64,000 nucleotides of DNA from positions 26,102,001 through 26,166,000 of the forward strand of contig OZ024752.1 in assembly GCA_964016885.1 (NCBI GenBank). The letters are read 5' to 3'. Within the stretch, counting starts at the first letter, position 1, and the number at the start of each line of letters is the position of its first letter. A model generated the notes under the pieces. The model did no database searches, was not told the DNA's origin, and saw only the letters and a program-made list of their open reading frames with translations. A program made the translations under genes and the position numbers. The DNA comes from Eledone cirrhosa. Taxonomy: Eukaryota. Positions 1 through 63,046 of this stretch are shown piece by piece.

Positions 1-161
1 TTTCCCGGCGTCGAAGACTACATTTTTCCTAAAATAAGTCTCAAAAGTCTACCATGCGTCCTGGAGGCCGAAGGTTGTTTATTATTTTTTTTCAAATTTT
101 TGGTTGTCAAAATTAGGGTGCGTCCCCGAGGACGAAGCGTCGTCGGCGCCGGGAAATACGG
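1..161. mobile_element. MITE (Tc1/mariner-pogo/Tc2-like), left end cut by window edge
   Basis: TTTCCCGGCG...CGCCGGGAAATACGG|TA inverted termini; near-identical complete copy at 14973-15143. Confidence 0.75.
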
Positions 162-4291: not shown

Positions 4292-5160
4292 CTAAACTCC
4301 GCCAGTTGCAGACTGCACATTAACATGTGATATAACTCTCCACAAAGTTCGATTACCAGCAGCAGAGTTCAAAGAGCAAAGATCAAGTCTAGTCCATAAA
4401 TTGACATTGTCAAGCCATTGTTTTGGCTGCGGGCCCCTGCTTCTCTTACCAGCCAACCTTCCTTCCAGGCATAACATACTCACACCACGAGTTGATCTTT
4501 TTATATGGCCGTATAGTTTGAGTAATCTTGACTTGACAATTGATGTAATTCGTCTAAGTTTGGTAATGTTGAGCAGCTCACTGATACAGATACGGTCGCT
4601 GAGCCGCTTGCTCATGATGTGGTTCTGGATTGTAGAGAGCTTCTGAAGTGACCTTGTCGTCCAATTAACACGGTCAAGACCATATAACACAACTGGTAGA
4701 ATGTAAGTATCAAAGATCTTGGCCTTCAAATGATAGAAAACACGTTTTGATGTTAGTACTTCTTTGTTCTTGTTGAAAGCTGCCCAACCTAGAGCGATTC
4801 TATATTGCGCAGCAACCATTCCATTGTTGTTTGATGATAGTTTGTGACCGAGATATACAAACTCCGTAACTTGAGCAATTTGCTGGTTGTAGATTGTGAG
4901 TTGGAGATTGGCATTGTTTTCGTCAGTGGTCATACATTTTGTTTTGGAGATGTTGATGTGTAAGCAAGCCTCCAGCAAATGTCTGGCCAGTACATTCAGA
5001 AAGTCTTGCAGATCAGTTCTAGATTAACACACGATGGCCAGATCGCCAGCATAGCTAAGATTTGATAGGATTTTACCTCCTATTTGATAGCCAGAGGAGC
5101 ATTCTTCTTCAGTCTGGTAGGTAAGTGCAGCTATAACTATACAGAAAAGAAGTACTGATA
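4292..5160 (-). pseudogene. RTE-clade LINE reverse transcriptase, C-terminal fragment
   Basis: ORF 4292-4978 with INISKTKCM, EFVYLG, RLLKLYGHI, LEGRLAGKRSRG...WLD; upstream degenerate catalytic motif (NLSYAGDL for YADD) near 5040-5065. Confidence 0.85.
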
Positions 5161-16591: not shown

Positions 16592-16622
<31 letters not shown>

Positions 16623-16695
16623 GAGCGGAACAAGTTAACATTAAACAATCTTTTAAATAAATTAAAATACGATTTAAATATTTACCTCTTCTAGT

Positions 16696-16775
16696 GCCAT
16701 GACCGACGGTTTCGCTTATCAAAAGATTGGAAATTCAGAGAATTTCCAATGGAAAGATATAGCTCTTCAGATAGC
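16696..16775 (-). ncRNA. Type I hammerhead ribozyme (family B)
   Basis: GCTAT-CTGAAGA-GCT..long hairpin..AGC-GAAA-CCGTCGG-TC-ATGGC on the minus strand. Confidence 0.8.
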
Positions 16776-17331
16776 TCTCCAAATCTACTAGACATAAGTC
16801 CGTATAGATGTAGATATATCACCCTCTGCCCAGTAAATGAATCAAGCCGTTAAAATGACCCACACACTTATTGAACTGTTAGAAAAAGCGGGAATTATAG
16901 ACTCGTTTATATTTCTTGCTGCTAGAAATAGCAGCATGATACAGCATTTTTTTCTCTACATTAAGGAGAATTAGATAAATGATATAGATATCCCAGTAGG
17001 TACTAGGTACCCACGGAAATATATATGGTGTCTATAATAGTGGTTGTTCTATGGTACTAATTTGAGATACCAGAACTGTAAATAAACATTAAACAATCTT
17101 TTAAATAAATTATAATATCTATATCATTTATCTAATTCTCCTTAATGTAGAGAAAAAAATGCTGTATCATGCTGCTATTTCTAGCAGCATGAAATATCAA
17201 CGAGTCTATAATTCCCGCTTTTTCTAACGGTCCAATAAGTGTGTGGGTCATTTTAACGGCTTGATTCATTCACTGGGCAGAGGGTGATATATCTACATCT
17301 ATACGGACTTATGTCTAGTAGATTTGGAAAA

Positions 17332-17411
17332 GCTATCTGAAGAGCTATATCTTTCCATTGGAAATTCTCTGAATTTCCAATCTTTTGATAAGCGAAACCA
17401 TCGGTCATGGC
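17332..17411 (+). ncRNA. Type I hammerhead ribozyme (family B)
   Basis: Stem I GCTAT/ATGGC, CTGAAGA, stem II GCT/AGC extended by ATTGGAAATTC/GAATTTCCAAT, GAAA, CCATCGG, GUC site. Confidence 0.8.
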
Positions 17412-17601
17412 ACTAGAAGAGGTAAATATTTAAATCGTATTTTAATTTATTTAAAAGATTGTTTAATGTTTACTTGTTCCGCTCATATTTACAGTTCTGG
17501 TATCTCAAATTAGTACCATAGAACAACCACTATTATAGACACCATATATATTTCCGTGGGTACCTAGTACTTACTGGGATATCTATATCATATATATATA
17601 T

Positions 17602-24452: not shown

Positions 24453-24773
<321 letters not shown>

Positions 24774-25761: not shown

Positions 25762-25953
25762 ATAATTGTTTCTACTTTTGGCACCAGGCCAGCAATTATC
25801 CCAGTGCATTACTGGTACTTTATTTTATCGACCCCGTAAGGATGAAAGGCTAAGTTAACCTCGGCGGGATTTGAATTCAGAACGTAAAGAGCCAAAACTC
25901 TATGCTGCAAAGCATGGTGTCTGACGCCCTACCGATACTGCCAATCCACCACC
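25762..25953 (-). mobile_element. tRNA-derived SINE with Deu/Nin-type core
   Basis: Minus strand: TGGCAGTATCGGTAG A box, GAATTCAAATCC B box, GCCTTTCATCCTTACGGGGTCGATAAAATAAAGTACCAG core. Confidence 0.8.
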
Positions 25954-26269: not shown

Positions 26270-27080
26270 TTTGACCGGCCACCTTCCTGGTGGCAAGGTT
26301 GTAAAAGAAAAGAAATTGTCATCCCTTGAATCGCAAGAATGTTTTGCAAATTTTGAAGGTGCCAGCTATCGCAGCCATTTGTAGACTATGAATTAGGGAG
26401 CTGCGCTTTTTGTCCACAAATCCAAGTTCAGTCATACTTTGGTCCAAGCGGGTTGGTATATAACCCGTAGCACCAATAATGATGGGTATGAAGCTAAAGG
26501 TGTATCTTGGATACTGGATTTGTAAACTCCTCATCATTGGTCCGTAGATGTCCTCCTTCTCCTGTATTTTTCTGACAACGTTTACATCAAGTGGGCAGCT
26601 GATCTCCACAACAGAACACGTTTTCAATGTGTGGTCCCAAACTACAATATCAGGCCGGTTGTGCTTTAATTTGGTGGCAGTTTTTATTTTCAGGTTCCAC
26701 CAGTATTCCTTAGTGCCATCTGTCTCAATATATTCTTCCTCGTTTGTTGTTAATTTTGTTTTCCGAAGTGCGTTCCAGATGGTTCTAGCTATCCCATCGT
26801 GTTTCATGGGGAGGTAGTAGCGAGATGACATTCTTTCGCAGCTGGCAACAATGTGGCTTACATCCTCGATCTTTGTTTTACATAGCCTACATTTATTGTC
26901 AGCTGCTGGCCCTCCTCTTTTGTGCAGCAGATATTTGGTAGGGAGTTCTTGTTCCTGTATTGCATAGAGATATCCCTCAAGGTGTGATGTCATAAACTTG
27001 TCGGAACTCCATGCCAGGCTTTTTGAGTGGTTTATCCCCTCTATGGTCTGTGTTTTACGCCTCAAGTATCCATGCACAAC
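26270..27080 (-). pseudogene. R4/Dong-like non-LTR retrotransposon 3' part: CCHC knuckle plus restriction-like endonuclease
   Basis: ORF 26319-27077: CRLC..EDVSHIVASC, KHD, RPDIVVWD...VVEISCP...KEDIY; 3' end next to (ACAT)n. Confidence 0.85.
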
Positions 27081-27160
27081 TTTTTCTGTAAATTGGTCAC
27101 TTTTTCTGTAAATTGGTCACTTTTTCTGTAAATTGGTCACTTTTTCTGTAAATTGGTCAT
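27078..27160. repeat. 21-bp tandem repeat x4 at the 5' truncation junction of the R4-like element
   Basis: (ACTTTTTCTGTAAATTGGTC)-type unit repeated. Confidence 0.9.
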
Positions 27161-31032: not shown

Positions 31033-31822
<790 letters not shown>

Positions 31823-33833: not shown

Positions 33834-34001
33834 GTATGTATATATATACATATATATGTATATATATACATATATATATATATGTTGTAATAAAATGAAA
33901 ACGAAATTTCATTTCTCACTCTTAGTACGGCACTTACTTAATTTCGTTTTCATTTTATTACAACTTGTCGTTCTCGGTACGCCTGGCCGGACTCACTCGA
34001 T

Positions 34002-34049
34002 ATGCAAATTAGGCTGCTCAGCCGTTAATTTTCATAAGGAAAGTATATA
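34002..34049 (+). promoter_or_regulatory. Candidate snRNA-type promoter module (octamer ATGCAAAT, TAATTTTCATA, TATATA)
   Basis: Same motifs with near-identical spacing in divergent family F (56304-56350). Confidence 0.4.
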
Positions 34050-34083
34050 CTTTCGAACGTTCAACCATCTGGCAGAAGGGTAT

Positions 34084-34126
34084 ACGATGCTGATGATAGC
34101 TAACAAGCTTGAAACTAGTACATCGT
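34084..34126 (+). ncRNA. Minimal type I hammerhead (family A)
   Basis: ACGATG-CTGATGA-TAGCTAACAAGCTT-GAAA-CTAG-TA-CATCGT. Confidence 0.88.
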
Positions 34127-34537
34127 TCCTGTGTCAGTGTTGAACAAAAAGGTGACGTGGTTGCCTTAACACCGTACGGCATAAATTCAGGCTGTTCAGT
34201 TTGTTTACAAACGAACAAAGCGGGCGCTATAATAAGCGTCCGCTAAACTGATACGTACATATATGTATGTGTACCTGTATGTATATATATATATATATAT
34301 ATGCATGCTACTGTACGTCTGTATACATATATGTATGTACGTATACATACATACTTACATTTAAGTAAGTGCCGTACTAAGAGTGAGAAATGAAATTTCG
34401 TTTTCATTTTATTACAACTTGTCGTTCTCGGTACGCCTGGCCGGACTCACTCGATATGCAAATTAGGCAGCTCAGCCGTTAATTTTCATAAGGAAAGTAT
34501 ATACTTTCGAACGTTCAACCATCTGGCAGAAGGGTAT

Positions 34538-34580
34538 ACGATGCTGATGATAGCTAACAAGCTTGAAACTAGTACATCGT
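34538..34580 (+). ncRNA. Minimal type I hammerhead (family A, copy 2)
   Basis: Identical motif. Confidence 0.88.
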
Positions 34581-34989
34581 TCCTGTGTCAGTGTTGAACA
34601 AAAAGGTGACGTGGTTGCCTTAACACCGTACGGCATAAATTCAGGCTGTTCAGTTTGTTTACAAACGAACAAAGCGGGCGCTATAATAAGCGTCCGCTAA
34701 ACTGATACGTACATATATGTATGTGTACCTGTATGTATATATATATATATATATGCATGCTACTGTACGTCTGTATACATATATGTATGTACGTATACAT
34801 ACATACTTACATTTAAGTAAGTGCCGTACTAAGAGTGAGAAATGAAATTTCGTTTTCATTTTATTACAACTTGTCGTTCTCGGTACGCCTGGCCGGACTC
34901 ACTCGATATGCAAATTAGGCAGCTCAGCCGTTAATTTTCATAAGGAAAGTATATACTTTCGAACGTTCAACCATCTGGCAGAAGGGTAT

Positions 34990-35032
34990 ACGATGCTGAT
35001 GATAGCTAAGAAGCTTGAAACTAGTACATCGT
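34990..35032 (+). ncRNA. Minimal type I hammerhead (family A, copy 3)
   Basis: Same motif, loop II AAGA. Confidence 0.88.
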
Positions 35033-35183
35033 TCCTGTGTCAGTGTTGAACAAAAAGGTGACGTGGTTGCCTTAACACCGTACGGCATAAATTCAGGCTG
35101 TTCAGTTTGTTTACAAACGAACAAAGCGGGCGCTATAATAAGCGTCCGCTAAACTGATACGTACATATATGTATGTGTACCTG

Positions 35184-35243
<60 letters not shown>

Positions 35244-35312
35244 TGGTACTGTACGTCTGTATACATATATGTATGTACGTATACATACATACTTACATTT
35301 ATATATATATGC

Positions 35313-36475: not shown

Positions 36476-38355
<1,880 letters not shown>

Positions 38356-38368
38356 ATATATATATATT

Positions 38369-38432
<64 letters not shown>

Positions 38433-38450
38433 TATATATATATATATAAT

Positions 38451-38551
<101 letters not shown>

Positions 38552-38552
38552 C

Positions 38553-38589
<37 letters not shown>

Positions 38590-38590
38590 C

Positions 38591-38650
<60 letters not shown>

Positions 38651-38658
38651 TATATATA

Positions 38659-38848
<190 letters not shown>

Positions 38849-39146: not shown

Positions 39147-39330
39147 TATACATATATATATATGTATATATATATATGTATCTTTTAATATGAATGTAAT
39201 CTCTAAATGTGTACTGCCACACTAAATGCTGTAATGGATGTTGAACCACCAAGCAACAATATTTGCATATGTATCTGTATGTCTCTTGGGTTGAAAAGGA
39301 GGTCATACAAGTGTTGATTCATTAATAAAT

Positions 39331-39377
39331 TGCTCCGAAGAATCCAAACCTCCGTTTGGAGGAAACAGTTGTAAGCA
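39331..39377 (+). ncRNA. Type I hammerhead in 5' pLTR (variant core CCGAAGA)
   Basis: TGCT-CCGAAGA-ATCCAAACCTCCGTTTGGAG-GAAA-CAGTTG-TA-AGCA. Confidence 0.7.
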
Positions 39378-39630
39378 TAAAAATGTTTTGAACAGTTCTT
39401 TGATTCTTATAACTTATATATAACTGCTCTGTAAATCATCTGACGTTATTACATTGAGCTATTTAACTTACTGGTAATAAGGTAGTAATATATTACTGCC
39501 TACCACTATTTAGGGTTTGTAAAAATATATATAACTACAAAAGGTTTTTGTATTTGCATAACCATAAATAATATCCTTAATACTATTAACTGCTCCATAC
39601 TGTTGAGCTGACATACAATAAATTACCAAT

Positions 39631-42099
39631 ATGCTAATCAAAGACCAACTCCCCATGTCAACCAAGAACATACCAATACCATCCAAGAATACATATGAGA
39701 AATTGTTGATCAACAGTGTAAATTCCTTTATCAATAGAGTGAGATGGAGGACATTCCATTTTGATAGAAACAAATCTAACAATGTTAATAATACTAACAA
39801 ATTTGACTCCTTCGGCTTTAAAACCTTTAAAAGCCCCCCTCATAACACACTACTTAACTCCTTTGAAAATGACCTAATAAAACTAGTTAAGAACATTAAA
39901 AACAATAAGCACCATAATAGAAACAACACCTTCTTAAACAAACTTAACACCTCTATTAATGAATTCAAAACTAGTAATAAAATTATTGTACACGCGGATA
40001 AAACTAATAACATATACAGCCTGAATTATAATACTTATAGAAAGTTTATATATAATGAACTACATAAAAGCTACAAGAAAACTACTATGAAAAACTTAGA
40101 GGATATTAATATAGAGGGATATAATATAGTGTCTAAACTAGGACTTCAGAGGCATACACAACCATACACCCCAAACCCCGCTAGATTCTCTCTGAAGGAC
40201 CATAAGGAGGACTTCATTAGCAACCCCTCGATTAGACTTATCTGCCCTTCCAAGTCCGACAGTGGCATTATCAGCAAGAAAATTTTAGATAAAATCATCC
40301 CACAGATTAAACACAAGATACACCTTAAACAATGGGGAAATACGGGTGAAGTTATCGAATGGTTCAAAGATATCAAGAATAACAAGGACAAAAAATTTAT
40401 TCAATTTGATATCAATTCATACTACACCTCTATTTCCCCTATCCTATTAAATAAGGCACTAATCATGGCCATGAACAATAGCGACCTGACTAGAACCCAG
40501 ATTGATGTCATCCTTGCGGCCCGTAAAACCATAATCACCTTTGAGGACCAATTATGGACCCGCAAGGATACGCACAACAACTTCGACATAACTATGGGGT
40601 CTTCGACATAACTATGACTCGGCGCAGGTCACTGATTTGGTCGGCCTATACTTACTTAATGAAATCCATAAGGACCTTCCATACCTCAACGGTGGTTTGT
40701 ACCGCGATGATACACTTCTACTTATAGAATATAAAAAATTCAATATAGAAAGAACTAGAAAACTATTGCACAGGACATTCAAAAACTATAACCTTAGTAT
40801 CACCATGGACAAAAACACTAAAAACGTTAACTTCCTAGACGCCACACTATACCTCGACTCAAGGATATATACACCTTTCCATAAGCCTAACGAAAAACTC
40901 ATTTACGTGGATACCAAGTCTAATCACCCTAGATCAATATTAAACTCTATCTCTAAGGGGGTATCCAATAGAATCTCTAATATATCCTATGACGCAAACA
41001 TATTTAGCAAAAACTCGCAATATTATAATCAAGCATTAGCTAGAGCCGGCCATAATATAGAGATTGAGTTCCTACCTACGAAAACACATAGCTACAGCAT
41101 TATCTCGCACAATATGTCCATGAGGAAACCTAGTAATATGAATAGCAACCACACGCACACTAAAGCAGAGGGTGCCATCAAAGGTAACCATTACCACAGA
41201 AACTACCGTAGTACCTTAGGAGGAAACAACACACCAGACACTAAAAACAAAAATAGAAGAAGAAATAATACATTTTTCAACCCTTCTTTCAACCTAAACG
41301 TCTCCACCAACATACCTAGGGCTTTCTTCTCACTACTAGATAAAAACTTCCCTCTAGGACAGAAGTACCATAACCTTTTAAACAAAAACACTATTAAAAT
41401 CTCATACTCTACGACGCCTAACATAGCATACCACATAGCTAGTAGCAATAAAAGAAAAATTAATTCTTACTTCCAACAAACGAAATCGCAACAGGGGGTA
41501 AACCATCAAAATATCTCTGTAGCTAATAACCCTAACAACGGCAGTAATAATAGTAATAGCACTAGTATAAGCAATAACACCGGGGACGACAACCCACATA
41601 TCCAAAATCCTATAGCTACCACCCGGACTTCTGCACAGCATTATAACCAGCAGACTAACACCCAGAATAATTGTAACTGTAGAGCAAATAGAACCTGCCC
41701 TTTAGATAAAAATGCCTAATCAAGGATATCATATACTCATGCACCGTCACAACTAGCAACTCTTCAGAAACCTATGTAGGCTCCACTTCTAACTGCTTCA
41801 AAACCAGGTATAATTCGCACATCCACTCGTTCAAAAAGCACAGTCTAGCCAGCTCCACCTCACTATCTAGCTACATACACTATCTAAAAACTAAAAATAA
41901 ACCTTACACACTCAAATGGGAAGTGATATGTAGCGCGACTTCGTACAAACCACCTAATAAATTTTGTAACCTCTGTATACTAGAGACCCACACTATTATC
42001 TTCTCTAACCATAACCTACTTAACAAAAAATCTGAAGTGTTCGCAACTTGCCAGCACCGCTTCAGACATTCCTTCCAAAACTTTAAGCCCAATATATAG
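39631..42099 (+). pseudogene. Naiad-type PLE polyprotein (RT, CxCx5C linker, GIY-YIG) with two disruptions
   Basis: STKNIPIPS, LKDHKEDF..NPSIRLI.P.KS, FIQFDI.SYY.SI, ITMGS, GLYRDD, VNFLD, CNCRANRTCPL. Frame 41713-42099 (absent from the ORF track) reads IIYSC..YVGST..FKTRY..H..SF..TSLS.YI..CNLC..E..LLNKKSE.F..CQHR. Disrupted by a repeated CTTCGACATAACTATG (~40581-40616) and a frameshift in the A-run at 41708-41712. Confidence 0.92.
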
Positions 42100-43533
42100 C
42101 AATGTCGGACTTGAACCAGACACCACCTCTAGCATCAAACACCAAGGGCACACCTTATACCACATCCCCACACTCATTGATCCAATATAACACTAATCGG
42201 GACATCCCTCTAGAACCCTTCACAGCAGGAATACCCCTTTGTACTTCTACTTTAGATGTGACTGCATCCAGTTGCTTGAACTGCACTACACCACTTTATA
42301 ATTAATGTAAAATTTAAACATTGAATTGATTGTATTGTTGGTGCTATGCGGGTGATTTGCCATCGTTGGATAAATGGAAGACTAATTAATCTAGTAACGT
42401 TGATGAGCTGTATAACCTATATGCTGAGTGCAGTGAATGTATTGCAAGTGGCGTATGAGTTGTACATATATGTATGAATTGATGGTCAGATTAGTGACAT
42501 GAGGAGTGTAGATTGACCTCTGGTCTACCCTAGTGATAGTTATCTTTCGACATCCAATATAACATGCACTGACCTAGAGCTTACCAGGGATTATTATATA
42601 TTGAAGTGATTCTATAATCATCCTGCCAGGTTCTATGAGTAGACTACAATCACAATGATCATTGATTTAGAAATCTCGCTCATCGTGTAAAATATTCAAT
42701 TGTGGCACTCTATAATGGAGGATATCACCATAATATGAACACCTTCAGTACAGCTTAATAGACTACACTATAGTTAAGACACTTTAAATTTTTAGAAACT
42801 GTGTATAACCATAGAAGTTAGGGACTATTTTGAGACACAATTTAATAGTTAGTAATAGAAACCACTGAGTTACCTCCCCTCATGCATTAACTCGCCTTAG
42901 TCACACACACACTTCCAGAAAATATTTCGATGTCGATTCTCGCAACGTAAGAACCTGCTGTATTGAACATCAGACTTCGATTCTCTAAGAGGATTGTCAA
43001 ACGCCCAATATCGAATCGTCGTGGATTATGTGAGGGGCATATAATCTGAAAAATACGCTCCCCGGACTATGAAAATGTTGCTGTGCATGAAATCCATATC
43101 ATCGCTTTGCTACGCATTTCCAATATTTTTAATGCTTATATTATTTCTCCACGCACAGGCTATAACAATCATATAAAGAATTCATTACCAGTTCAACCCC
43201 CTTAACACTCTTGATCACCTGTTTAAGTGCTTCCATTACATGTAACACTCTGCCACACTATAGCATTATATAAACAAGACGCACGTGCTTGCCACACGTG
43301 TAACTATTCTACTCAATAACCGATTATGACTATCCTATCGCATTAATTTTCATGTTGTATTTTAACCTGTATTTTTGATTTTATCTTTTAATATGAATGT
43401 AATCTCTAAATGTGTACTGCCACACTAAATGCTGTAATGGATGTTGAACCACCAAGCAACAATATTTGCATATGTATCTGTATGTCTCTTGGGTTGAAAA
43501 GGAGGTCATATAAGTGTTCATTCATTAATAAAT

Positions 43534-43580
43534 TGCTCCGAAGAAACCAAACCTCGGTTTGCAGGAAACAGTTGTAAGCA
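43534..43580 (+). ncRNA. Type I hammerhead in 3' pLTR (variant core CCGAAGA)
   Basis: TGCT-CCGAAGA-..CAAACCTCGGTTTG..-GAAA-CAGTTG-TA-AGCA. Confidence 0.65.
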
Positions 43581-43623
43581 TAAAAATGTTTTGAACAGTT
43601 CTTTGATTCTTATAACTTATATA

Positions 43624-43716
<93 letters not shown>

Positions 43717-44132: not shown

Positions 44133-45087
44133 GTAAAAATTGGAATAAATGCTCTGAAATAGCGATATATATGTGAATATAGACATAGAATATTCGAAAA
44201 TATTCTGTATGTTTATAATAAACATTATGTACACAGCTAAGTATTCTATAAGTCTCTAGCTGTGTCATTCTCGATAAAAGCACTGGATATGTAGTCCTGA
44301 AGATTTCTAACAAGAATGAAACGCGTAGATTACTTCCCTTGCTTTTATCGAGAATCTAATTGTAATACGTGACGTATTCTATTCTATAGCGATTAGGTCT
44401 TCAAAATGTTTATTATAAACATACAGAATATTTTCGAATATTCTATGTCTATATTCACATATATATCGCTATTTCAGAGCATTTATTCCAATTTTTAATT
44501 TCTGCCGGACCGGCAACCGCTCTTTCAAACCAGTTCCTGTACACAGCTAAGTATTCTATAAGTCTCTAGCTGTGTCATTCTCGATAAAAGCACTGGATAT
44601 GTAGTCCTGAAGATTTCTAACAAGAATGAAACGCGTAGATTACTTCCCTTGCTTTTATCGAGAATCTAATTGTAATACGTGACGTATTCTATTCTATAGC
44701 GATTAGGTCTTCAAAATGTTTATTATAAACATACAGAATATTTTCGAATATTCTATGTCTATATTCACATATATATCGCTATTTCAGAGCATTTATTCCA
44801 ATTTCTAATTTCTGCCGGACCGGCAACCACTCTTTCAAACCAGTTCCTGTACACAGCTAAGTATTCTATAAGTCTCTAGCTGTGTCATTCTCGATAAAAG
44901 CACTGGATATGTAGTCCTGAAGATTTCTAACAAGAATGAAACGCGTAGATTACTTCCCTTGCTTTTATCGAGAATCTAATTGTAATACGTGACGTATTCT
45001 ATTCTATAGCGATTAGGTCTTCAAAATGTTTATTATAAACATACAGAATATTTTCGAATATTCTATGTCTATATTCACATATATATG
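44133..45087 (+). mobile_element. HHR retrozyme-like family C: ~92-bp inverted piece plus ~2.8 tandem 310-bp monomers
   Basis: HHR at 44291, 44601, 44911. Confidence 0.88.
44291..44333 (+). ncRNA. Minimal type I hammerhead (family C; repeats at 44601-44643 and 44911-44953)
   Basis: GTAGTC-CTGAAGA-TTTCTAACAAGAAT-GAAA-CGCG-TA-GATTAC, enclosed by a 16-bp stem ATTCTCGATAAAAGCA/TGCTTTTATCGAGAAT. Confidence 0.85.
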
Positions 45088-45138
45088 TAAGTATGTATGT
45101 ATACGTACATACATATATGTATACAGACGTACAGTAGC

Positions 45139-45177
<39 letters not shown>

Positions 45178-45603
45178 CAGGCACACATATATATATGTAC
45201 GTATCAGTTTAGCGAATATTTATTATAACATTCGCTTTGTTCGTTTGTAAACAAACGGACAGCCTAATTTATGCCGTGCGGTGTTAAGGCAACCACGTCA
45301 CCTTTTTGTTCAACACTGACACAGGAACGATGTACTAGTTTCAAGCTTCTTAGCTATCGTCAGCACCGTATACCCTTCTGCCAGATGGTTGAACGTTCGA
45401 AAGTATATACTTTCCTTATGAAAATTAACGGCTGAGCAGCCTAATTTGCATATCGAGTGAGTTCAGTCGGCAAGGCGCACCGAAAACGATAAGTTGGAAT
45501 AGAATGAAACGAAATTTCATTTCTCACTATTAGTACGGCACTTACTTAAATGTAAGTATGTATGTATACGTACATACATATATGTATACAGACGTACAGT
45601 AGC

Positions 45604-45605
<2 letters not shown>
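45087..45605 (-). mobile_element. Family A subfamily copy (~1.1 monomer), HHR at 45327-45369
   Basis: Reverse complement of family A with substitutions; ACGGTG-CTGACGA..GAAA-CTAG-TA-CATCGT. Confidence 0.85.
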
Positions 45606-45687
<82 letters not shown>

Positions 45688-45692
<5 letters not shown>

Positions 45693-46558
45693 TAAGGTAA
45701 TCGATTCTTTTACAATGGAATTAGCTCGAAGGAGGAAAATACCCAATGAGCCGTGTATAAACTAATATGTATGTGATGAAACACAGATACCAACACATCT
45801 GTATATATATTGCAAAAGAAAATTTAGCCACATTGAAGTATACTAATTATTATACTACAGTTTGTCCATATCGATTTAAAATAATAAATCAACAAAGACG
45901 AACTGTATTGCCAAGAGGCTATGATGTTTAGACACATTTAAATTTCAAAATCAAACCTGTTCCGTAGATAAGTTTAAACTTTAAAATCCAAATATGTTTC
46001 GAGTTAAATAAGTGTAGGAATATCATGTCCTGCCCTCCTCAGTAAACATCCAGGAACAAATTGATATGCTTCACTTCTAAATAATTTAAAAGACTGCGTG
46101 ACGCACATGGTTTAACAGTATCTAGCTAGTCTCATAACCGTACTGCTAGAAATAACAGTCGTATACATGAGGCGGCTTTCAGCTCAGACTAGGAGCAGTT
46201 ATTAATAAGGTAATGGATTCTTTTACAATGGAATTAGCTCGAAGGAGGAAAATACCCAATGAGCCGTGTATAAACTAATATGTATGTGATGAAACACAGA
46301 TACCAACACATCTGTATATATATTGCAAAAGAAAATTTAGCCACATTGAAGTATACTAATTATTATACTACAGTTTGTCCATATCGATTTAAAATAATAA
46401 ATCAACAAAGACGAACTGCATTGCCAAGAGGCTATGATGTTTAGACACATTTAAATTTCAAAATCAAACCTGTTCCGTAGATAAGTTTAAACTTTTCTTT
46501 TGCAATATATATACAAATGTGTTGGTATCTGTGTTTCATCACATACATATTAGTTTAT
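45688..46558 (-). mobile_element. HHR retrozyme-like family H: 513-bp monomer x~1.6 plus inverted piece 46495-46558
   Basis: ATTAATAAGGTAAT at 45688 and 46201. Confidence 0.82.
45923..46050 (-). ncRNA. Type I hammerhead with long stem III (family H)
   Basis: GATGTTTA-CTGAGGA-GGG..CTC-GAAA-CATATTTGGATTT..AAATTTAAATGTG-TC-TAAACATC. Confidence 0.78.
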
Positions 46559-46579
46559 TTATATATATATATATATATA

Positions 46580-47005
46580 TACATACAGGCACACATATAT
46601 ATATGTACGTATCAGTTTAGCGAATATTTATTATAACATTCGTGCCGTACTAAGAGTGAGAAATGAAATTTCGTTTCATTCTATTCCAACTTATCGTTTT
46701 CGGTGCGCCTGGCCGACTGAACTCACTCGATATGCAAATTAGTCTGCTCAGCCGTTAATTTTCATAAGGAACGTATATACTTTCGAACGTTCAACCATCT
46801 GGCAGAAGGGTATACAGTGCTGACGATAGCTAAGAAGCTTGAAAATAGTACATCGTTCCTCTGTCAGTGTTGAACAAAAAGGTGACGTGGTTGCCTTAAC
46901 ACCGTACGGCATAAATCAGTCTGTCCGTTTGTTTACAAACGAACAAAGCGAATGTTATAATAAATATTCGCTAAACTGATACGTACATATATATATGTGT
47001 GCCTG

Positions 47006-47047
<42 letters not shown>

Positions 47048-47161
47048 GAAGGCTACTGTACGTCTGTATACATATATGTATGTACGTATACATACATACT
47101 TACATTTAAGTAAGTGCCGTACTAAGAGTGAGAAATGAAATTTCTTTTCATTCTATTCCAA

Positions 47162-47165
<4 letters not shown>
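46580..47165 (+). mobile_element. Family A copy with inverted 5' piece; HHR partly degenerate
   Basis: Identity to family A; stems I and III mutated (ACAGTG, GAAAATAG). Confidence 0.82.
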
Positions 47166-47223
<58 letters not shown>

Positions 47224-47245
47224 TATATATATATACATATATACA

Positions 47246-47284
<39 letters not shown>

Positions 47285-47398
47285 TACAGTATATATATAT
47301 ATATACATACATATATACAGTATATATATATATATATACATATATATAGTATATATATATATATATATATACATATATATAGTATATATATATATATA

Positions 47399-49241
47399 CA
47401 GTTGGGTGCGGATGCATTCATGTATATATGTGTGTGTCCGCATGTATCTGTGTGTTTTTAAATATATTAATAACTCCCTCTGGTCGAGCAATCTTTGAGG
47501 TGTGGGGACAACTGGAAAGCTTCCATTACTCATACTTCTCGCCTTCTTCACTACCTCTTCTACGGCCTCGATATGAATACCCCCTCCGCCTCCGTGGTAT
47601 TTTCTTCGTGGTTATAAGAGGCTTAGCTCTGTTTCTCGACCGTTATATCGCGTGACTATCTCCCCCTCCGCCTTTTGGGATTCTTTCTCACGTCGTGTAG
47701 ACGCGTTCTTGAGACTAGTAAAATGAGGTATCCTCTTGATAAGTTGGCAGACCTCGCAAGGACTCTATATCTTTGATATATTGTTTTTGTTTATGCCACG
47801 AAACTACGTAGTCGAGGAATTTAGGAACAGTTTAGGTATGATACATTTTATTACTAATTATATCTAAATGTTTCTTCTCTCTTCATAATGTATTTTTAAC
47901 TCTGATACTGGTTCAGTCTGGTTCAAACTGAATTGGTCTGTCCCAGTCATTCATTGAGCAACATCGGTGAAGTTGGCACCCTTAACTCACAGTTGGGTGC
48001 GGATGCATTCATGTATATATGTGTGTGTCCGCATGTATCTGTGTGTTTTTAAATATATTAATAACTCCCTCTGGTCGAGCAATCTTTGAGGTGTGGGGAC
48101 AACTGGAAAGCTTCCATTACTCATACTTCTCGCCTTCTTCACTACCTCTTCTACGGCCTCGATATGAATACCCCCTCCGCCTCCGTGGTATTTTCTTCGT
48201 GGTTATAAGAGGCTTAGCTCTGTTTCTCGACCGTTATATCGCGTGACTATCTCCCCCTCCGCCTTTTGGGATTCTTTCTCACGTCGTGTAGACGCGTTCT
48301 TGAGACTAGTAAAATGAGGTATCCTCTTGATAAGTTGGCAGACCTCGCAAGGACTCTATATCTTTGATATATTGTTTTTGTTTATGCCACGAAACTACGT
48401 AGTCGAGGAATTTAGGAACAGTTTAGGTATGATACATTTTATTACTAATTATATCTAAATGTTTCTTCTCTCTTCATAATGTATTTTTAACTCTGATACT
48501 GGTTCAGTCTGGTTCAAACTGAATTGGTCTGTCCCAGTCATTCATTGAGCAACATCGGTGAAGTTGGCACCCTTAACTCACAGTTGGGTGCGGATGCATT
48601 CATGTATATATGTGTGTGTCCGCATGTATCTGTGTGTTTTTAAATATATTAATAACTCCCTCTGGTCGAGCAATCTTTGAGGTGTGGGGACAACTGGAAA
48701 GCTTCCATTACTCATACTTCTCGCCTTCTTCACTACCTCTTCTACGGCCTCGATATGAATACCCCCTCCGCCTCCGTGGTATTTTCTTCGTGGTTATAAG
48801 AGGCTTAGCTCTGTTTCTCGACCGTTATATCGCGTGACTATCTCCCCCTCCGCCTTTTGGGATTCTTTCTCACGTCGTGTAGACGCGTTCTTGAGACTAG
48901 TAAAATGAGGTATCCTCTTGATAAGTTGGCAGACCTCGCAAGGACTCTATATCTTTGATATATTGTTTTTGTTTATGCCACGAAACTACGTAGTCGAGGA
49001 ATTTAGGAACAGTTTAGGTATGATACATTTTATTACTAATTATATCTAAATGTTTCTTCTCTCTTCATAATGTATTTTTAACTCTGATACTGGTTCAGTC
49101 TGGTTCAAACTGAATTGGTCTGTCCCAGTCATTCATTGAGCAACATCGGTGAAGTTGGCACCCTTAACTCACAGTTGGGTGCGGATGCATTCATGTATAT
49201 ATGTGTGTGTCCGCATGTATCTGTGTGTTTTTAAATATATT
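47399..49241 (+). mobile_element. HHR retrozyme-like family I: ~3.1 apparently identical tandem 591-bp monomers
   Basis: Units start at 47399, 47990, 48581, 49172; (TA)n flanks; absent from the paralogous block at ~53700. Confidence 0.9.
47731..47818 (+). ncRNA. Type I hammerhead with U3-A8 core variant (repeats at 48322-48409 and 48913-49000)
   Basis: TCCTC-TTGATAA-GTTGGCA..TGCCAC-GAAA-CTACGTAG-TC-GAGGA. Confidence 0.78.
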
Positions 49242-49416
49242 ATATATATATATATATATATATACATATATATATAGTATATATATATATACATATATAT
49301 AGTATATATATATATATATACATATATACAGTATATATATATATATACATATATACAGTATATATATATATATATATACATATATACAGTATATACAGTA
49401 TATATATATATATATA

Positions 49417-49505
<89 letters not shown>

Positions 49506-49542
49506 GCATATATATATATATGCATATATATATATATATATA

Positions 49543-49584
<42 letters not shown>

Positions 49585-49638
49585 TAAACAAATAATGAAT
49601 AAAACAATGAAACAGTTCCTTATATTAAACAAAAAAAG

Positions 49639-49793
49639 TTCATTATTTAACGATCGTTTCTAGGATATATATGTGTTAGAATTGGCATGCATACTCAACA
49701 GATCTATGTACAAAATTATACAAAATTATACAAACTATCAAGATTAAATATACATACCAAACACACATATATGCCGTCTTCAGAAATAATGAA
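49639..49793 (-). ncRNA. Type I hammerhead with very long stem II (family J, minus arm)
   Basis: Reverse complement of 49845-49999. Confidence 0.72.
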
Positions 49794-49844
49794 ATATATT
49801 TCATTATAATAATGAAATATATTAAATATAATAATGAAATATAT

Positions 49845-49999
49845 TTCATTATTTCTGAAGACGGCATATATGTGTGTTTGGTATGTATATTTAATCTTGA
49901 TAGTTTGTATAATTTTGTATAATTTTGTACATAGATCTGTTGAGTATGCATGCCAATTCTAACACATATATATCCTAGAAACGATCGTTAAATAATGAA
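49845..49999 (+). ncRNA. Type I hammerhead with ~115-nt stem II (family J)
   Basis: TTCATTATTT-CTGAAGA-[CGGCATATATGTGT..TTGGTATGTATATTTAAT../..GTTGAGTATGCATGCCAA..ACACATATATATCCTA]-GAAA-CGATCG-TT-AAATAATGAA. Confidence 0.72.
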
Positions 50000-50193
50000 C
50001 TTTTTTTGTTTAATATAAGGAACTGTTTCATTGTTTTATTCATTATTTGTTTAATATTTTATCTTGACTCTGTATTCCGTTTATCTTTCACCGAAAGTGA
50101 TTTTTCATTACATCTCTTCTTTCCATGATATCCGGAATACATTGAGTTCTTCATACGGATTGGACACTACCGTAAACTCTTGGTAGATTTATC

Positions 50194-50289
<96 letters not shown>

Positions 50290-50476
50290 TATATACACAC
50301 ACACACATATATATATATATCAGTACGTGTATGAGCGTATCAGTGTAAAGCAAGAATTTCAATATTGCACGTTTGGTTCAACAAACAAAACTGGAGAATC
50401 AATTAACCAATTTAATTTTAAATCATTCATATTCTGTCTAACGATGTTTTGTATCATGAATGCACACGTGTGTATG

Positions 50477-50551
<75 letters not shown>

Positions 50552-50829
50552 TGTGTGCGCGTGTGTGTGTATTTATGTATAACATATATATTTACATACG
50601 TCCATATATATATATATATATTTTTTTTTTAAGTAAACAGAGAACAAAAAAAAAACGTGTAAGCGAAGAGATAGTACAAATGTTATTATTATTATACATA
50701 TATATATATATGTATACACATATATATAGTTATATACATCTATATACTTATACAAATACATATATATATATATATGCCTTATATAAATACATATATATAT
50801 ATATATCTTGTATATTCAATTATATTATA

Positions 50830-50880
<51 letters not shown>

Positions 50881-50916
50881 GTAATCATATATGCATGTAT
50901 ATATACGTATATATAC

Positions 50917-50973
<57 letters not shown>

Positions 50974-50998
50974 TAATCATATATGCATGTATATACAC

Positions 50999-51065
<67 letters not shown>

Positions 51066-51175
51066 CATAATCATATATGCATGTATATACACGTATATAT
51101 ATATATATTATACATAATTATATATGCATCTAGAAATACGTATATATACGTATATATACGTATACATATATATAT

Positions 51176-51218
<43 letters not shown>

Positions 51219-51262
51219 CATACATAAATTTATATATATATGCATATATACATGCATATAGA

Positions 51263-51300
<38 letters not shown>

Positions 51301-51601
51301 TAGTACATACACATATTTATATATATATTTATAAATATATTTATATATTTATATATTTAAGTTGGCAGTGATAGATGAAATTATGAAGAGAGGTTTCCTT
51401 TGCAATGATATAAAGATAGAAAAGAACTGAACATGGCCGACATTCTAAGATAAGCATATTTTAACAGCCTATACTAGAAACAAAAATATCATCAAATATA
51501 GTTGAAGAAATTTATTTGTTCCTCACTTATTATATTGGGAAACAAGGTGACGTGCATTAACATACATGTGTATATACATGTGGATATATATATATATATG
51601 C

Positions 51602-51710
<109 letters not shown>

Positions 51711-51736
51711 TATCGTATATATATATATATATTTAT

Positions 51737-52110
51737 ATAATTGTTTCTACTTTTTGGCACAAGGCCAGCAATTATCCCAGGGTATTACAGGTACTTTATT
51801 TTATCGACACCATAAGAATGAAAGGCAAAGTTAACCTCGTCGGGATTTGAACTCACATCATAAAGGGCCGTAACTCTTTGCTGCCAAGCATGGCGTCCGG
51901 CTCTCTACCGATACTGCCAATAATTTTTTTCTACTTTAGGCACAAGGGCAGCAATTACCCAGTACATTACTGGTACTTTATTTCATCGACCCCGTAAGGA
52001 TGAAAGGCAAAGTTAACCTCGGCGGGATTTGAACTCAGACTGTAAAGGGACGTAACTATGCTAGGAAGCATGGCGTTCAACCCTCTACCGATACTGCCAA
52101 TTCACCGCCC
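51737..52110 (-). mobile_element. Two tandem Nin-type tRNA SINEs
   Basis: Two successive matches to 25762-25953 (51737-51921, 51922-52110). Confidence 0.8.
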
Positions 52111-52177
52111 TATATATATTCATATTTCCTAAATTTTGTTTTCAAATCCATATTTATTAAAAACACCATGTTATTTA

Positions 52178-52238
52178 TTCATTCTGATGACTGAAGACAG
52201 ATAGAACATCTGCCTTCAAGAAACCACTGGTAAATGAA
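52178..52238 (+). ncRNA. Type I hammerhead (solo short element, family K, ~52120-52290)
   Basis: TTCATT-CTGATGA-CTGAAGACAGAT..ATCTGCCTTCAA-GAAA-CCACTGG-TA-AATGAA. Confidence 0.75.
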
Positions 52239-52313: not shown

Positions 52314-52682
52314 ATAAAAACAAATAACGAAACGAAATTAAATTTCGTTTCGCTTCTAACTCACTTTTGTATGACTGACGCTTAAACAATTAAGTTAAAG
52401 TGTACATCTACATATGTATACGGAAGTATTAGTATGCATATAAATACACACATGTATACATATGTACATGTACTCAGCTTTTCACTAGACACTTTACAGT
52501 GAGTGTCAGCTAGTCTGTATGTAACCACACAGGCGGACCGGGTTTTAGAGTCATACGAGTTTTCAAGGAAACACATTTCCTCTATTCTCCAGAGGGCCAG
52601 ACAGGAATATTGGACTAGTTTCGATGTTATTACATCTCATCAGCAATATTTACCCATCTTCCGGCTTCTCTGGAGAATTGTA

Positions 52683-52686
<4 letters not shown>
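52314..52686 (-). mobile_element. HHR retrozyme-like family F, minus copy (HHR 52606-52650)
   Basis: Circular permutation of 56211-56663. Confidence 0.85.
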
Positions 52687-56214
<3,528 letters not shown>

Positions 56215-56303
56215 TGAGTTAGAAGCGAAACGAAATTTAATTTCGTTTCGTTATTTGTTTTTATCGTTTCCGCTGAACCGGTGCGTACAATGACTCACGT
56301 TCT

Positions 56304-56350
56304 ATGCAAATTAGTCTACCCACTACTAATTTTCATAGAAAAAGCATATA
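56304..56350 (+). promoter_or_regulatory. Candidate snRNA-type promoter module (family F)
   Basis: ATGCAAAT at 56304, TAATTTTCATA at 56327, CATATA at 56345; matches family A spacing. Confidence 0.4.
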
Positions 56351-56396
56351 ACGATATGTGCTTTTACAATTCTCCAGAGAAGCCGGAAGATGGGTA

Positions 56397-56441
56397 AATA
56401 TTGCTGATGAGATGTAATAACATCGAAACTAGTCCAATATT
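56397..56441 (+). ncRNA. Minimal type I hammerhead (family F)
   Basis: AATATTG-CTGATGA-GATGTAATAACATC-GAAA-CTAG-TC-CAATATT, enclosed by ATTCTCCAGAG/CTCTGGAGAAT. Confidence 0.92.
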
Positions 56442-56724
56442 CCTGTCTGGCCCTCTGGAGAATAGAGGAAATGTGTTTCCTTGAAAACTCGTATGACTCT
56501 AAAACCCGGTCCGCCTGTGTGGTTACATACAGACTAGCTGACACTCACTGTAAAGTGTCTAGTGAAAAGCTGAGTACATGTACATATGTATACATGTGTG
56601 TATTTATATGCATACTAATACTTCCGTATACATATGTAGATGTACACTTTAACTTAATTGTTTATATATATATATATATATGTATACATATAAAATATAT
56701 AGAATATAATATATATATATGTAT

Positions 56725-60597: not shown

Positions 60598-60737
60598 TTA
60601 TATACATATGTCTATGTGTGCGTACAACAATAAATACATATGTCTACATATATGTATGTGTGTGCATGTGTATGCGACATCATGATGTCATACGAATAAA
60701 ACAGTTCTGGGCCTGTAGAAGTAATTTCTAGATATAA

Positions 60738-60928
60738 TAATTGTTTCTACTTTTTGGCACAAGGCCAGCAATTATTTCAGTGTATTACTGGTACTTTATT
60801 TTATCGACCCCGTAAGGACGAAAGGCAAAGCAAACCACGGCGGAATTTGAACTCACACAATAAAGGGCCGTAACTCTTTGCTGCAAAGCATGGCGTCCGA
60901 CCCTCTACCGATACTGCCAATCCATGCC
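60738..60928 (-). mobile_element. Nin-type tRNA SINE
   Basis: Matches 25762-25953. Confidence 0.8.
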
Positions 60929-61112
60929 GAATATATGTATATATATATATCATGAAAAAAATTCTACATTTTCTATGTATTTTATCTGAGGAGGACATGT
61001 TTTGCTTTATTTTATACATAAAACTTTACATCTTCGAAATATATATAATGAAATAAATAGAGATGATATAAAGTATATATCTTTCGTTTATCACTATTAT
61101 AAATATATATAT

Positions 61113-62984: not shown

Positions 62985-63046
62985 TATTTTATTATATATA
63001 TTTCAAGGGTACCAACATTTTTGGTACGCTCTCATCAGATAAAATA
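62985..63046 (-). ncRNA. Type I hammerhead (family G, copy 2)
   Basis: TATTTTAT-CTGATGA-GAGCGTACCAA..TTGGTACCCTT-GAAA-TATATA-TA-ATAAAATA. Confidence 0.75.

What the first reader, a model, noticed from the sequence alone, without database searches (positions are those of the whole stretch)
47399..49241. Family I: identical 591-bp triple with U3-A8 compensated catalytic core
The core reads TTGATAA instead of CTGANGA, so the tertiary C3-G8 pair is replaced by U3-A8, a known tolerated covariation. Loop II holds two extra hairpins (CCT-CGCA-AGG, TATATC-TTT-GATATA). Units look identical, implying a very recent event, and the monomer is large for an animal retrozyme.
Basis: partly seen in the sequence, partly recalled or inferred. 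Interest (0 to 1): 0.72.

Follow-up and report, generated by a model that had tools for sequence, protein, structure and literature searches.

The report
Self-cutting RNA repeat in TA microsatellite
Three identical copies of a 591-base jumping element, each carrying a self-cutting hammerhead RNA, recently landed in a TA repeat; this kind of element and its odd core base pair are already known, but the ribozyme seems to use an unusual extra brace (a pseudoknot onto a long side arm) that standard searches miss.

Summary
The array is real: 47398-49242, 3.12 units of 591 bp, 1252 of 1252 positions identical. Each unit has a type I hammerhead with a U3-A8 core; 0 of 2000 shuffles reach its stem lengths. 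It is best read as a non-autonomous Penelope-like (PLE) hammerhead repeat, a non-LTR retrozyme, inserted into (TA)n. A duplicate of the locus in the window lacks the insert, which supports a recent event.

The headline features are not new. U3-A8 is published in natural hammerheads, including about 1,300 schistosome PLE motifs, and 591 bp lies within the reported 51-972 bp. The 'two extra hairpins' are wrong: helix II is one long interrupted stem.

The pseudoknot recurs in the same register, with 4 of 5 pairs changed, in an unrelated family nearby. Rfam misses both motifs. Cleavage, circles and the pseudoknot are untested.

The parts
47398..49242 (+). Whole insert: 72-bp 5'-truncated partial unit plus three identical 591-bp units (1845 bp; the first A and last TA are shared with the target, so 47399-49240 is certainly element)
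47398..47469 (+). 5'-truncated partial unit (pseudo-LTR-like terminal direct repeat; identical to 49171-49242)
47470..48060 (+). Full unit 1 (unit defined from the element's 3' end); no coding capacity seen
48061..48651 (+). Full unit 2
48652..49242 (+). Full unit 3; its 3' end runs into (TA)n, 247 nt past the last cut site
47725..47818 (+). Hammerhead 1, type I: stem I 47731-47735/47814-47818; core U3..A9 47736-47742; helix II base 47743-47749/47794-47799 with one bulged U; GAAA 47800-47803; cut after 47813
48316..48409 (+). Hammerhead 2 (identical; core 48327, cut after 48404)
48907..49000 (+). Hammerhead 3 (identical; core 48918, cut after 48995)
47750..47793 (+). Extension of helix II: internal loop (47750-47755 / 47791-47793), 8-bp upper stem (47756-47763/47783-47790), 6-bp cap hairpin (47766-47780)
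   Evidence: pair probabilities 0.95-1.00
47725..47729 (+). Proposed pseudoknot 5' strand (GAGGU), one A upstream of stem I; can instead fold back on stem I's own 5' strand as an inhibitory hairpin
   Evidence: inferred, not probed
47751..47755 (+). Proposed pseudoknot 3' strand (ACCUC) in the internal loop of helix II; unpaired with probability 0.86-0.96 in nested folds
47803..47812 (+). Helix III region: perfect 10-nt palindrome; pairs between adjacent copies (double hammerhead)
47814..48404 (+). Predicted cleaved monomer / circle, 591 nt (second one 48405-48995); strongly folded with the ribozyme switched off
47164..47397 (.). Left part of the compound (TA)n target tract
49243..49578 (.). 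Right part of the compound (TA)n target tract
53677..53716 (.). Empty-site counterpart: uninterrupted 40-nt TA run in the duplicated block 52683-56214 (position counted by hand from the tract map)
17326..17411 (+). Unrelated hammerhead family (C3-G8 core) with the same long helix II and the same pseudoknot register; second, inverted copy with core at 16770 (-)
39179..43625 (+). Broken Hydra-clade Penelope-like element (RT plus GIY-YIG in three frames, 244-bp terminal direct repeats, (TA)n on both sides): shows the kind of helper present, not the helper itself

Best explanation
A non-autonomous Penelope-like retroelement (non-LTR retrozyme) that rides on a (TA)n-targeting PLE. (1) The tandem is transcribed on the + strand (inferred; no promoter identified). 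(2) Adjacent hammerheads pair through the 10-nt palindromic helix III and cut after GUC, releasing 591-nt monomers (anatomy shown, dimer fold computed, cleavage inferred). The U3-A8 pair keeps the core intact, and a 5-6 bp pseudoknot from just upstream of stem I into the internal loop of the long helix II probably replaces the usual loop-loop contact while removing an inhibitory hairpin (inferred from a second family). (3) A host ligase closes the monomer into a circle whose stable fold keeps the ribozyme off (inferred from published retrozymes; fold computed). (4) A PLE endonuclease/RT nicks (TA)n, primes at an AU-rich point ending in UA and copies 3.12 times round the circle, giving identical units, a 72-bp terminal repeat and no visible target duplication (insertion site and geometry shown; enzyme and circular template inferred). 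Step odds: PLE-type hammerhead repeat inserted in (TA)n about 0.9; ribozyme cleaves about 0.65; pseudoknot about 0.6; circular template about 0.55.
For: Array and motif beyond chance. Both ends fall mid-monomer (416 nt before the first cut, 247 nt after the last) and three cut junctions are intact, which one linear cleaved monomer cannot template without jumps. Partial unit followed by full units is the PLE arrangement described by Craig 2021. The empty-site duplicate has one 40-nt TA run where the filled site has 16 + insert + 24. Other elements in the window, including the PLE, also end at or in TA-rich junctions. Hydra-clade PLEs insert in (TA)n and carry hammerheads with 3-4 bp, often palindromic helix III like this one; a broken Hydra-type element lies at 39179-43625. 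In a two-copy transcript the inter-copy helix III forms unconstrained (0.46-0.78 per pair) and the double hammerhead is 9.6 kcal/mol better than two monomeric ones. The monomer is strongly structured (z -6.0, 0 of 100 shuffles). Pseudoknot: 5 of 5 Watson-Crick pairs at the same register in 2 of 11 motifs tested, belonging to two families with no detectable homology, 4 of 5 pairs different; fixed-position chance about 8e-4; 0 exact-register hits in 60 null windows.
Against: No activity, transcript or circle data. Nested folding puts the active fold 5.3 kcal/mol above the best fold and stem I at 0.00-0.03 in native context; the isolated 109-nt motif folds no better than shuffles (42 of 200 as good). 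PLE hammerheads are slow in vitro and only 1 of 9 Xenopus retrozymes cleaved. The unit has no detectable similarity to the PLE in the window (16-90 of 100 shuffles score as well), and no hammerhead was found in that PLE. The pseudoknot rule was made after seeing both families, so the test is not blind; the second copy of family B has an indel and keeps 5 pairs only in a shifted register with one G-U; shuffling family B's own upstream 12-mer reaches 5 pairs somewhere in 15% of trials; the pseudoknot duplexes are weak (-5.4 and -3.0 kcal/mol). No Pol III A or B box matched the strict patterns used.
Confidence: 0.65

Rival explanations
1. The ribozyme is slow or silent in context. The array was copied from an uncleaved multimeric transcript, or one inserted unit was expanded at DNA level by unequal crossing-over and kept identical by conversion.
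For: Ribozyme-off folds dominate (rival hairpin 0.87-0.91 in native context). Low in vitro activity of PLE hammerheads; 8 of 9 Xenopus elements did not cleave. Li et al. propose local tandem expansion from a terminal repeat.
Against: A double, compensating core change with all three helices intact and a perfect palindrome implies selection for catalysis in the lineage. Nested folding ignores the pseudoknot and core contacts. DNA-level expansion needs the 72-bp terminal repeat to exist first, which already implies more-than-unit copying.
Confidence: 0.2
2. The unit is the 3' non-coding end (pseudo-LTR) of an autonomous PLE located elsewhere, inserted as a heavily 5'-truncated tandem, not an independent non-autonomous family.
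For: The ribozyme has PLE-type traits (5-bp stem I, long helix II with a bulge near its base, palindromic helix III, U3-A8 as in the schistosome Cercyon PLE). Retrozymes match PLE termini in Xenopus.
Against: Three full head-to-tail units with no ORF fragment; no match to either GIY-YIG-bearing element in the window. The rest of the genome could not be searched.
Confidence: 0.1
3. The unit number or perfect identity is an assembly or polishing artefact in a TA-rich region.
For: 0 differences; very repeat-rich, palindrome-bearing neighbourhood; raw reads not available.
Against: Neighbouring arrays keep their differences (452-bp: 1 mismatch + 2 gap columns, then 3 mismatches; 310-bp: 2 mismatches), so copies are not generally homogenised. 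Both junctions are unique and the flanks continue the tract pattern of the empty-site duplicate. The motif itself would stand even with one unit.
Confidence: 0.05

Closest known systems
Metazoan non-LTR retrozymes (Cervera and de la Pena 2020, PMC7229834; Li et al. 2026, 10.64898/2026.07.22.740005)
   Same: Non-coding head-to-tail repeats, one type I hammerhead per unit, GC below 50% (41%), highly self-paired monomer, few units, co-occurrence with PLEs, size within 51-972 bp.
   Different: Larger than the 150-450 bp of the first description; non-canonical ribozyme (U3-A8, long helix II); predicted circle blocks the ribozyme whereas most described metazoan circles leave it free; inserted in (TA)n with no visible target duplication.
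PLE-associated hammerheads, incl. the U3-A8 variant of Schistosoma mansoni Cercyon (Cervera and de la Pena 2014, PMC4209133)
   Same: Short helix I, long helix II with an unpaired base near its foot, palindromic helix III for dimer cleavage, U3-A8 core (about 1,300 hits there).
   Different: Those are minimal motifs, mostly single and heterogeneous; this one has a 10-nt palindrome, a 44-nt extension on helix II, a probable pseudoknot, and sits in a perfect tandem without an ORF.
Hydra-clade Penelope-like elements (Craig et al. 2021, PMC8557442)
   Same: (TA)n target, partial tandem with 5'-truncated upstream copy, hammerhead near the 3' end with a 3-4 bp helix III and a very short loop (supplement File S2).
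   Different: No RT or endonuclease; all Hydra rows seen in File S2 have a C3-G8 core and a short loop II; hammerhead lies further from the 3' end (core 324 nt) than in most listed families.
Pseudoknotted hammerheads (Perreault et al. 2011, PMC3088659; type III motifs of toad and termite HDV-like circles, de la Pena et al. 2021, PMC7936874)
   Same: Watson-Crick pseudoknot between the stem I and stem II regions instead of loop-loop contacts (about 40% of Perreault's set); 5-bp stem I with a 6-bp stem II and an internal loop capped by an extra hairpin.
   Different: There the internal loop and extra hairpin are on helix I of a type III motif; here they are on helix II of a type I motif, the partner is the upstream strand, and it is combined with a dimer-type helix III. 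Figures of these papers were not visible, so an identical example may be drawn there.

Membership tests
Hammerhead ribozyme, type I | Core N3-UGANN8-A with a 3-8 Watson-Crick pair, GAAA, NUH site, three helices with stem I open | tested here: met
   U3-A8, G10.1-C11.1, GUC site, stems 5/6/palindromic; 0 of 2000 shuffles
Hammerhead ribozyme, type I | Match to an Rfam hammerhead model | tested here: not met
   No hammerhead family at E<=10; a canonical neighbour hits Hammerhead_HH9 at E 3e-6, below gathering. Expected for a 57-nt helix II region and variant core.
Hammerhead ribozyme, type I | Site-specific self-cleavage | not testable with these tools
   Only folding energies
Hammerhead ribozyme, type I | [quoted passage not shown] | tested here: inconclusive
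   5-bp pseudoknot supported by one other family; post hoc, no 3D model or probing
Non-LTR retrozyme | Tandem of at least two units each with a complete type I hammerhead | tested here: met
   3 of 3 full units
Non-LTR retrozyme | No protein-coding capacity | tested here: met
   Longest stop-to-stop frame confined to the repeat is 86 aa; 0 Pfam hits for the 3 frames scanned
Non-LTR retrozyme | Highly self-paired monomer, GC below 50% | tested here: met
   z -6.0; GC 0.41
Non-LTR retrozyme | Expressed as linear and circular monomer RNA | not testable with these tools
   No RNA data
Non-LTR retrozyme | Dispersed family with copies at other loci | tested here: inconclusive
   No other copy in the 64-kb window; no animal genome collection available; 0 matches in bacterial/archaeal genomes
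Non-autonomous PLE derivative | Partial tandem with 5'-truncated upstream copy and insertion into (TA)n | tested here: met
Non-autonomous PLE derivative | Sequence similarity to the terminal repeat of an autonomous PLE | tested here: inconclusive
   None to the PLEs inside the window; a 14-nt core motif is absent from the Craig 2021 supplement; other PLE families not searchable
Autonomous PLE | ORF with RT and GIY-YIG endonuclease | tested here: not met
Plant-type LTR retrozyme | Type III hammerheads in two LTRs around a unique centre, 4-bp TSD | tested here: not met
   Type I, pure tandem, no TSD visible

The most novel reading that the evidence does not exclude
An undescribed architectural class of animal type I hammerhead: a long helix II whose internal loop forms a Watson-Crick pseudoknot with the strand just upstream of stem I, combined with a palindromic dimer-type helix III. 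It is shared by unrelated (TA)n-targeted PLE parasites, is invisible to Rfam and short-loop descriptors (so such ribozymes would be undercounted), and in this family doubles as a switch: the same five bases either brace the active fold or fold back to block stem I, gating cleavage in multimers against stability in circles and making a U3-A8 core tolerable.
Probability: 0.4. Interest if true: 0.55.

Novelty: new variant of a known kind. Interest (0 to 1): 0.35.

Why it matters
The class, the U3-A8 core and the size are all in print, so the finding as written is ordinary. Two things give it moderate value. First, a filled site and an empty duplicate a few kb apart, with mid-monomer ends and zero divergence, make a clean natural snapshot for testing the proposed but unproven step in which a PLE enzyme copies a ribozyme circle into (TA)n. 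Second, if the pseudoknot is real, there is a hammerhead architecture in animal genomes that current models miss, with a built-in on/off hairpin that could answer how retrozyme circles avoid cutting themselves.

Tried and rejected
Rfam: the whole-window list was swamped by microRNA models matching TA repeats (150 of 456 rows shown); local searches gave no ribozyme for this motif. Coding role of the unit: short frames only, no Pfam hit; translated self-comparison gave only microsatellite matches among the top 20 rows shown. Homology of the unit to the second pseudoknot family (71 of 300 shuffles score as well) or to the PLE's non-coding ends: none. Hammerhead inside the Hydra-type PLE or beside the second GIY-YIG fragment: none by relaxed scans. 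Prokaryotic origin: 0 matches to a gapped motif in genome contigs. Homologue search with the PLE endonuclease piece: none among 32 candidates; PDB search of the middle piece: 0; the ESM Atlas gave no answer. Target-site duplication: not visible, and not detectable inside pure TA. Several coordinates for the rival hairpin and pseudoknot were off by one; only the corrected values are used. One search stopped on an offset error and was rerun. Lunse et al. 2017 was not held and the supplement of PMC7229834 could not be read; bioRxiv supplements are closed; any of these may hold similar motifs. Viral and metagenome contig collections stayed unchecked.

Full report
VERDICT. The array and its U3-A8 hammerhead are real. 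It is a new variant of a known kind: a non-autonomous Penelope-like (PLE) hammerhead repeat, or non-LTR retrozyme, recently inserted into (TA)n. Interest 0.35.

1. THE OBSERVATION. A period scan gives 1252 of 1252 identical positions at 591; the other periods from 585 to 599 give 295-415 matches. The exact repeat spans 47398-49242, which is three units plus 72 bp. A descriptor scan of both strands finds a type I hammerhead in each unit: core TTGATAA at 47736, 48327 and 48918, 5-bp stem I, G10.1-C11.1, GAAA, and a GUC site cut after 47813, 48404 and 48995. Of 2000 dinucleotide shuffles of the unit, 3 give any hit and 0 reach these stem lengths. Rfam finds no ribozyme here at E up to 10, while a canonical hammerhead elsewhere in the window hits Hammerhead_HH9 at E 3e-6. 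The unit is 41% GC. Its longest stop-to-stop frame confined to the repeat is 86 aa, and the three frames scanned have no Pfam match.

2. RIBOZYME ANATOMY. Helix II is not a loop with two hairpins. It is one long interrupted stem: a 6-bp base with a bulged U, a 6x3 internal loop, an 8-bp upper stem and a 6-bp cap hairpin (pair probabilities 0.95-1.00 for the upper parts). Helix III is a perfect 10-nt palindrome at 47803-47812. In a native two-copy transcript it pairs between copies without any constraint (0.46-0.78 per pair; within-copy 0.00), and the double hammerhead is 9.6 kcal/mol more stable than two single ones. Against activity: the active fold lies 5.3 kcal/mol above the best nested fold in both the single and the double form, stem I is 0.00-0.03 populated in native context, and the isolated 109-nt motif folds no better than shuffles (42 of 200). 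The main blocker is a 4-bp hairpin between 47725-47728 and stem I's own 5' strand (0.87-0.91). The cleaved monomer is strongly folded (z -6.0, 0 of 100 shuffles) with the ribozyme off.

3. A PROBABLE PSEUDOKNOT. The five bases 47725-47729, one A upstream of stem I, are the Watson-Crick complement of 47751-47755 in the internal loop of helix II, which nested folds leave unpaired (0.86-0.96). A second family in the window (core 17337, C3-G8) has the same plan: 5-bp stem I, one A, a five-base strand complementary to positions 9-13 of a long interrupted helix II. Four of the five pairs differ between the families, and the two units show no detectable homology (71 of 300 shuffles score as well). 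Of 11 motifs tested at this exact register, these 2 give 5 of 5 pairs and the other 9 give 0-3; chance at a fixed position is about 8e-4. Sixty composition-matched null windows gave 0 exact-register hits and 5 loose hits. Caveats: the rule was written after seeing both families; the second copy of that family (16770) has an indel and keeps five pairs only after a one-base shift with a G-U; shuffling that family's upstream 12-mer reaches five pairs somewhere in 15% of trials; a third motif (52184) passes the loose scan with two G-U pairs; the duplexes are weak (-5.4 and -3.0 kcal/mol); no 3D check was made. If real, the pseudoknot supplies the stem I-stem II contact and, in this family, also removes the blocking hairpin, an energy term the nested folds omit.

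4. INSERTION AND AGE. Block 46407-51888 is duplicated at 52683-56214. The duplicate lacks the array: the pattern of interruptions in the compound TA tract continues across the insert, and where the filled site has 16 + 24 TA bases around the insert the duplicate has one run of 40. Other runs differ in length between the blocks, so the exact sum may be partly luck, and precise deletion from the duplicate by recombination between TA runs cannot be excluded. The blocks differ at 10 of 1254 aligned bases in six non-microsatellite segments; the array differs at none, so it is younger unless homogenised. Neighbouring arrays keep their differences, which argues against general consensus smoothing by the assembler. 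Junction microhomology is 1 base at the 5' end and TA at the 3' end. Defined from the 3' end, the insert is a 72-bp 5'-truncated copy followed by three full units, the partial-tandem layout described for PLEs. The ends lie 416 nt before the first and 247 nt after the last cut site, so the template was a circle or an uncut multimer, not one cleaved linear monomer (inference).

5. SURROUNDINGS. The window holds at least six other hammerhead families, several as partial tandems or inverted pairs ending in TA-rich junctions. At 39179-43625 lies a PLE with 244-bp terminal repeats (239 of 244 identical) in (TA)n. Its reading frame is in three pieces. The first piece found 35 homologues among 1575 candidates, and the other two align in order to the best of them, an 803-aa protein; the last piece has a weak GIY-YIG match (E 0.003, below cut-off). 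By eye it carries the Hydra-clade marks listed by Craig et al. (RW, DKT, CxCX5C linker, CxxC and CxH). It is broken, has no hammerhead by my scan and no similarity to the unit, so it shows the type of helper available, not the helper. The only homologue named to a species is from Argonauta hians, and an Octopus Hydra element is listed in that paper's supplement; an octopod host is a reasonable inference, not established.

6. MECHANISM. Transcription of the tandem (promoter unknown; no strict Pol III box); dimer cleavage to 591-nt monomers; ligation to circles by a host ligase, as shown in vitro with RtcB for other retrozymes; target-primed copying round the circle by a (TA)n-targeting PLE enzyme. 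Shown here: array, motif, target, empty site, end geometry. Computed: dimer preference, off-state of the monomer. Inferred: cleavage, pseudoknot, circle, helper. Overall 0.65. Rivals: silent ribozyme with uncut-multimer or DNA-level expansion (0.2; only 1 of 9 Xenopus elements cleaved; PLE motifs are slow), truncated end of an autonomous PLE (0.1), assembly artefact (0.05).

7. WHAT IS KNOWN. Natural U3-A8 was reported in several hammerheads by Perreault et al. 2011 (PMC3088659; passages), who also found pseudoknots in about 40% of their set and a 10-bp dimer helix III in Aedes. Cervera and de la Pena 2014 (PMC4209133; text parts 1-2 of 4 and supplement part 1 of 3) found about 1,300 U3-A8 motifs linked to a schistosome PLE. 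Cervera and de la Pena 2020 (PMC7229834; parts 2-4 of 6; supplement unreadable) defined non-LTR retrozymes at 150-450 bp. Li et al. 2026 (10.64898/2026.07.22.740005; parts 1-3 of 5; supplements closed) give 51-972 bp and tie them to PLE termini. Craig et al. 2021 (PMC8557442; passages, section 11, supplement searches and part 2 of 59) describe Hydra and Naiad PLEs in (TA)n. De la Pena et al. 2021 (PMC7936874; passages and section 9) describe the mirror architecture, an internal-loop pseudoknot on helix I of type III motifs. PMC6765202 and PMC10085705 were seen as passages. Lunse et al. 2017 was not held. The hammerhead numbering used here is standard and recalled; family letters and names such as 'family B' are my labels.

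8. NOVELTY. Ten searches showed no paper describing a type I hammerhead with a pseudoknot into a helix II internal loop, or cephalopod retrozymes; I judged most hits from listings only, figures were not visible, and subscription papers are missing, so this is weak evidence of absence. The most novel reading not excluded is an undescribed, Rfam-invisible hammerhead architecture that doubles as a switch (probability 0.4, interest 0.55 if true). It is directly testable with compensatory mutants in two independent families.

Noticed in passing
window 16619-17595: Second long-helix-II hammerhead family (cores 16770 - and 17337 +) as an inverted pair, 365 matches / 8 mismatches / 1 gap; same pseudoknot register as the finding; missed by Rfam.
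   Followed up: yes
window 39179-43625: Broken Hydra-clade Penelope-like element with terminal direct repeats in (TA)n and an unusually long (about 1.5 kb) 3' non-coding region without a detectable hammerhead.
   Followed up: partly
window 52314-56664: Two inverted copies of a canonical hammerhead element (358 of 358 identical; cores 52643 -, 56404 +), both 3' ends in (TA)n, enclose a 3.5-kb copy of the adjacent genomic block 46407-51888: looks like capture of neighbouring DNA during a PLE-type insertion.
   Followed up: partly
window 33884-35300, 45085-45645, 46543-47166, 52820-53460: 452-bp hammerhead family with an internal TA run, U-U mismatch at the base of helix II, partial tandems and short inverted 5' pieces; the finding's target tract begins at the 3' end of one copy.
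   Followed up: partly
window 44137-45086: 310-bp hammerhead tandem (cores 44297, 44607, 44917) with an inverted 93-bp piece at its 5' end.
   Followed up: partly
window 24507-24553 (-), 52184-52232 (+), 60986-61047 (+), 62993-63038 (-): Further solitary hammerheads with extended helix II, several with an all-AU palindromic helix III, ending shortly before TA runs.
   Followed up: partly
window 45687-46495: 513-bp-period partial tandem (294 of 296 identical) with a weak hammerhead-like core at 46042 (-) whose helices II and III are unconvincing.
   Followed up: no
window 49576-50062: Near-perfect 488-bp palindrome directly after the right TA flank, absent from the duplicated block; inverted insertion or assembly fold-back.
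   Followed up: no
window 36476-38757: Second GIY-YIG fragment (37534-37959, -; Pfam E 0.007, below cut-off) within an inverted arrangement, probably a truncated PLE of another clade; no hammerhead found beside it.
   Followed up: partly
window 26319-27116 (-), 4292-5023 (-), 31261-31785 (-): Fragments of other transposons: a LINE C-terminal piece with zf-RVT (E 2e-6), an RT tail (weak), and a DDE_3 transposase (E 5e-8).
   Followed up: no
window 25762-25950, 51734-52117, 56060-56214, 60733-60936: A dispersed repeat of about 190 bp in five copies at 84-90% identity, SINE-like by appearance (label from recall).
   Followed up: no
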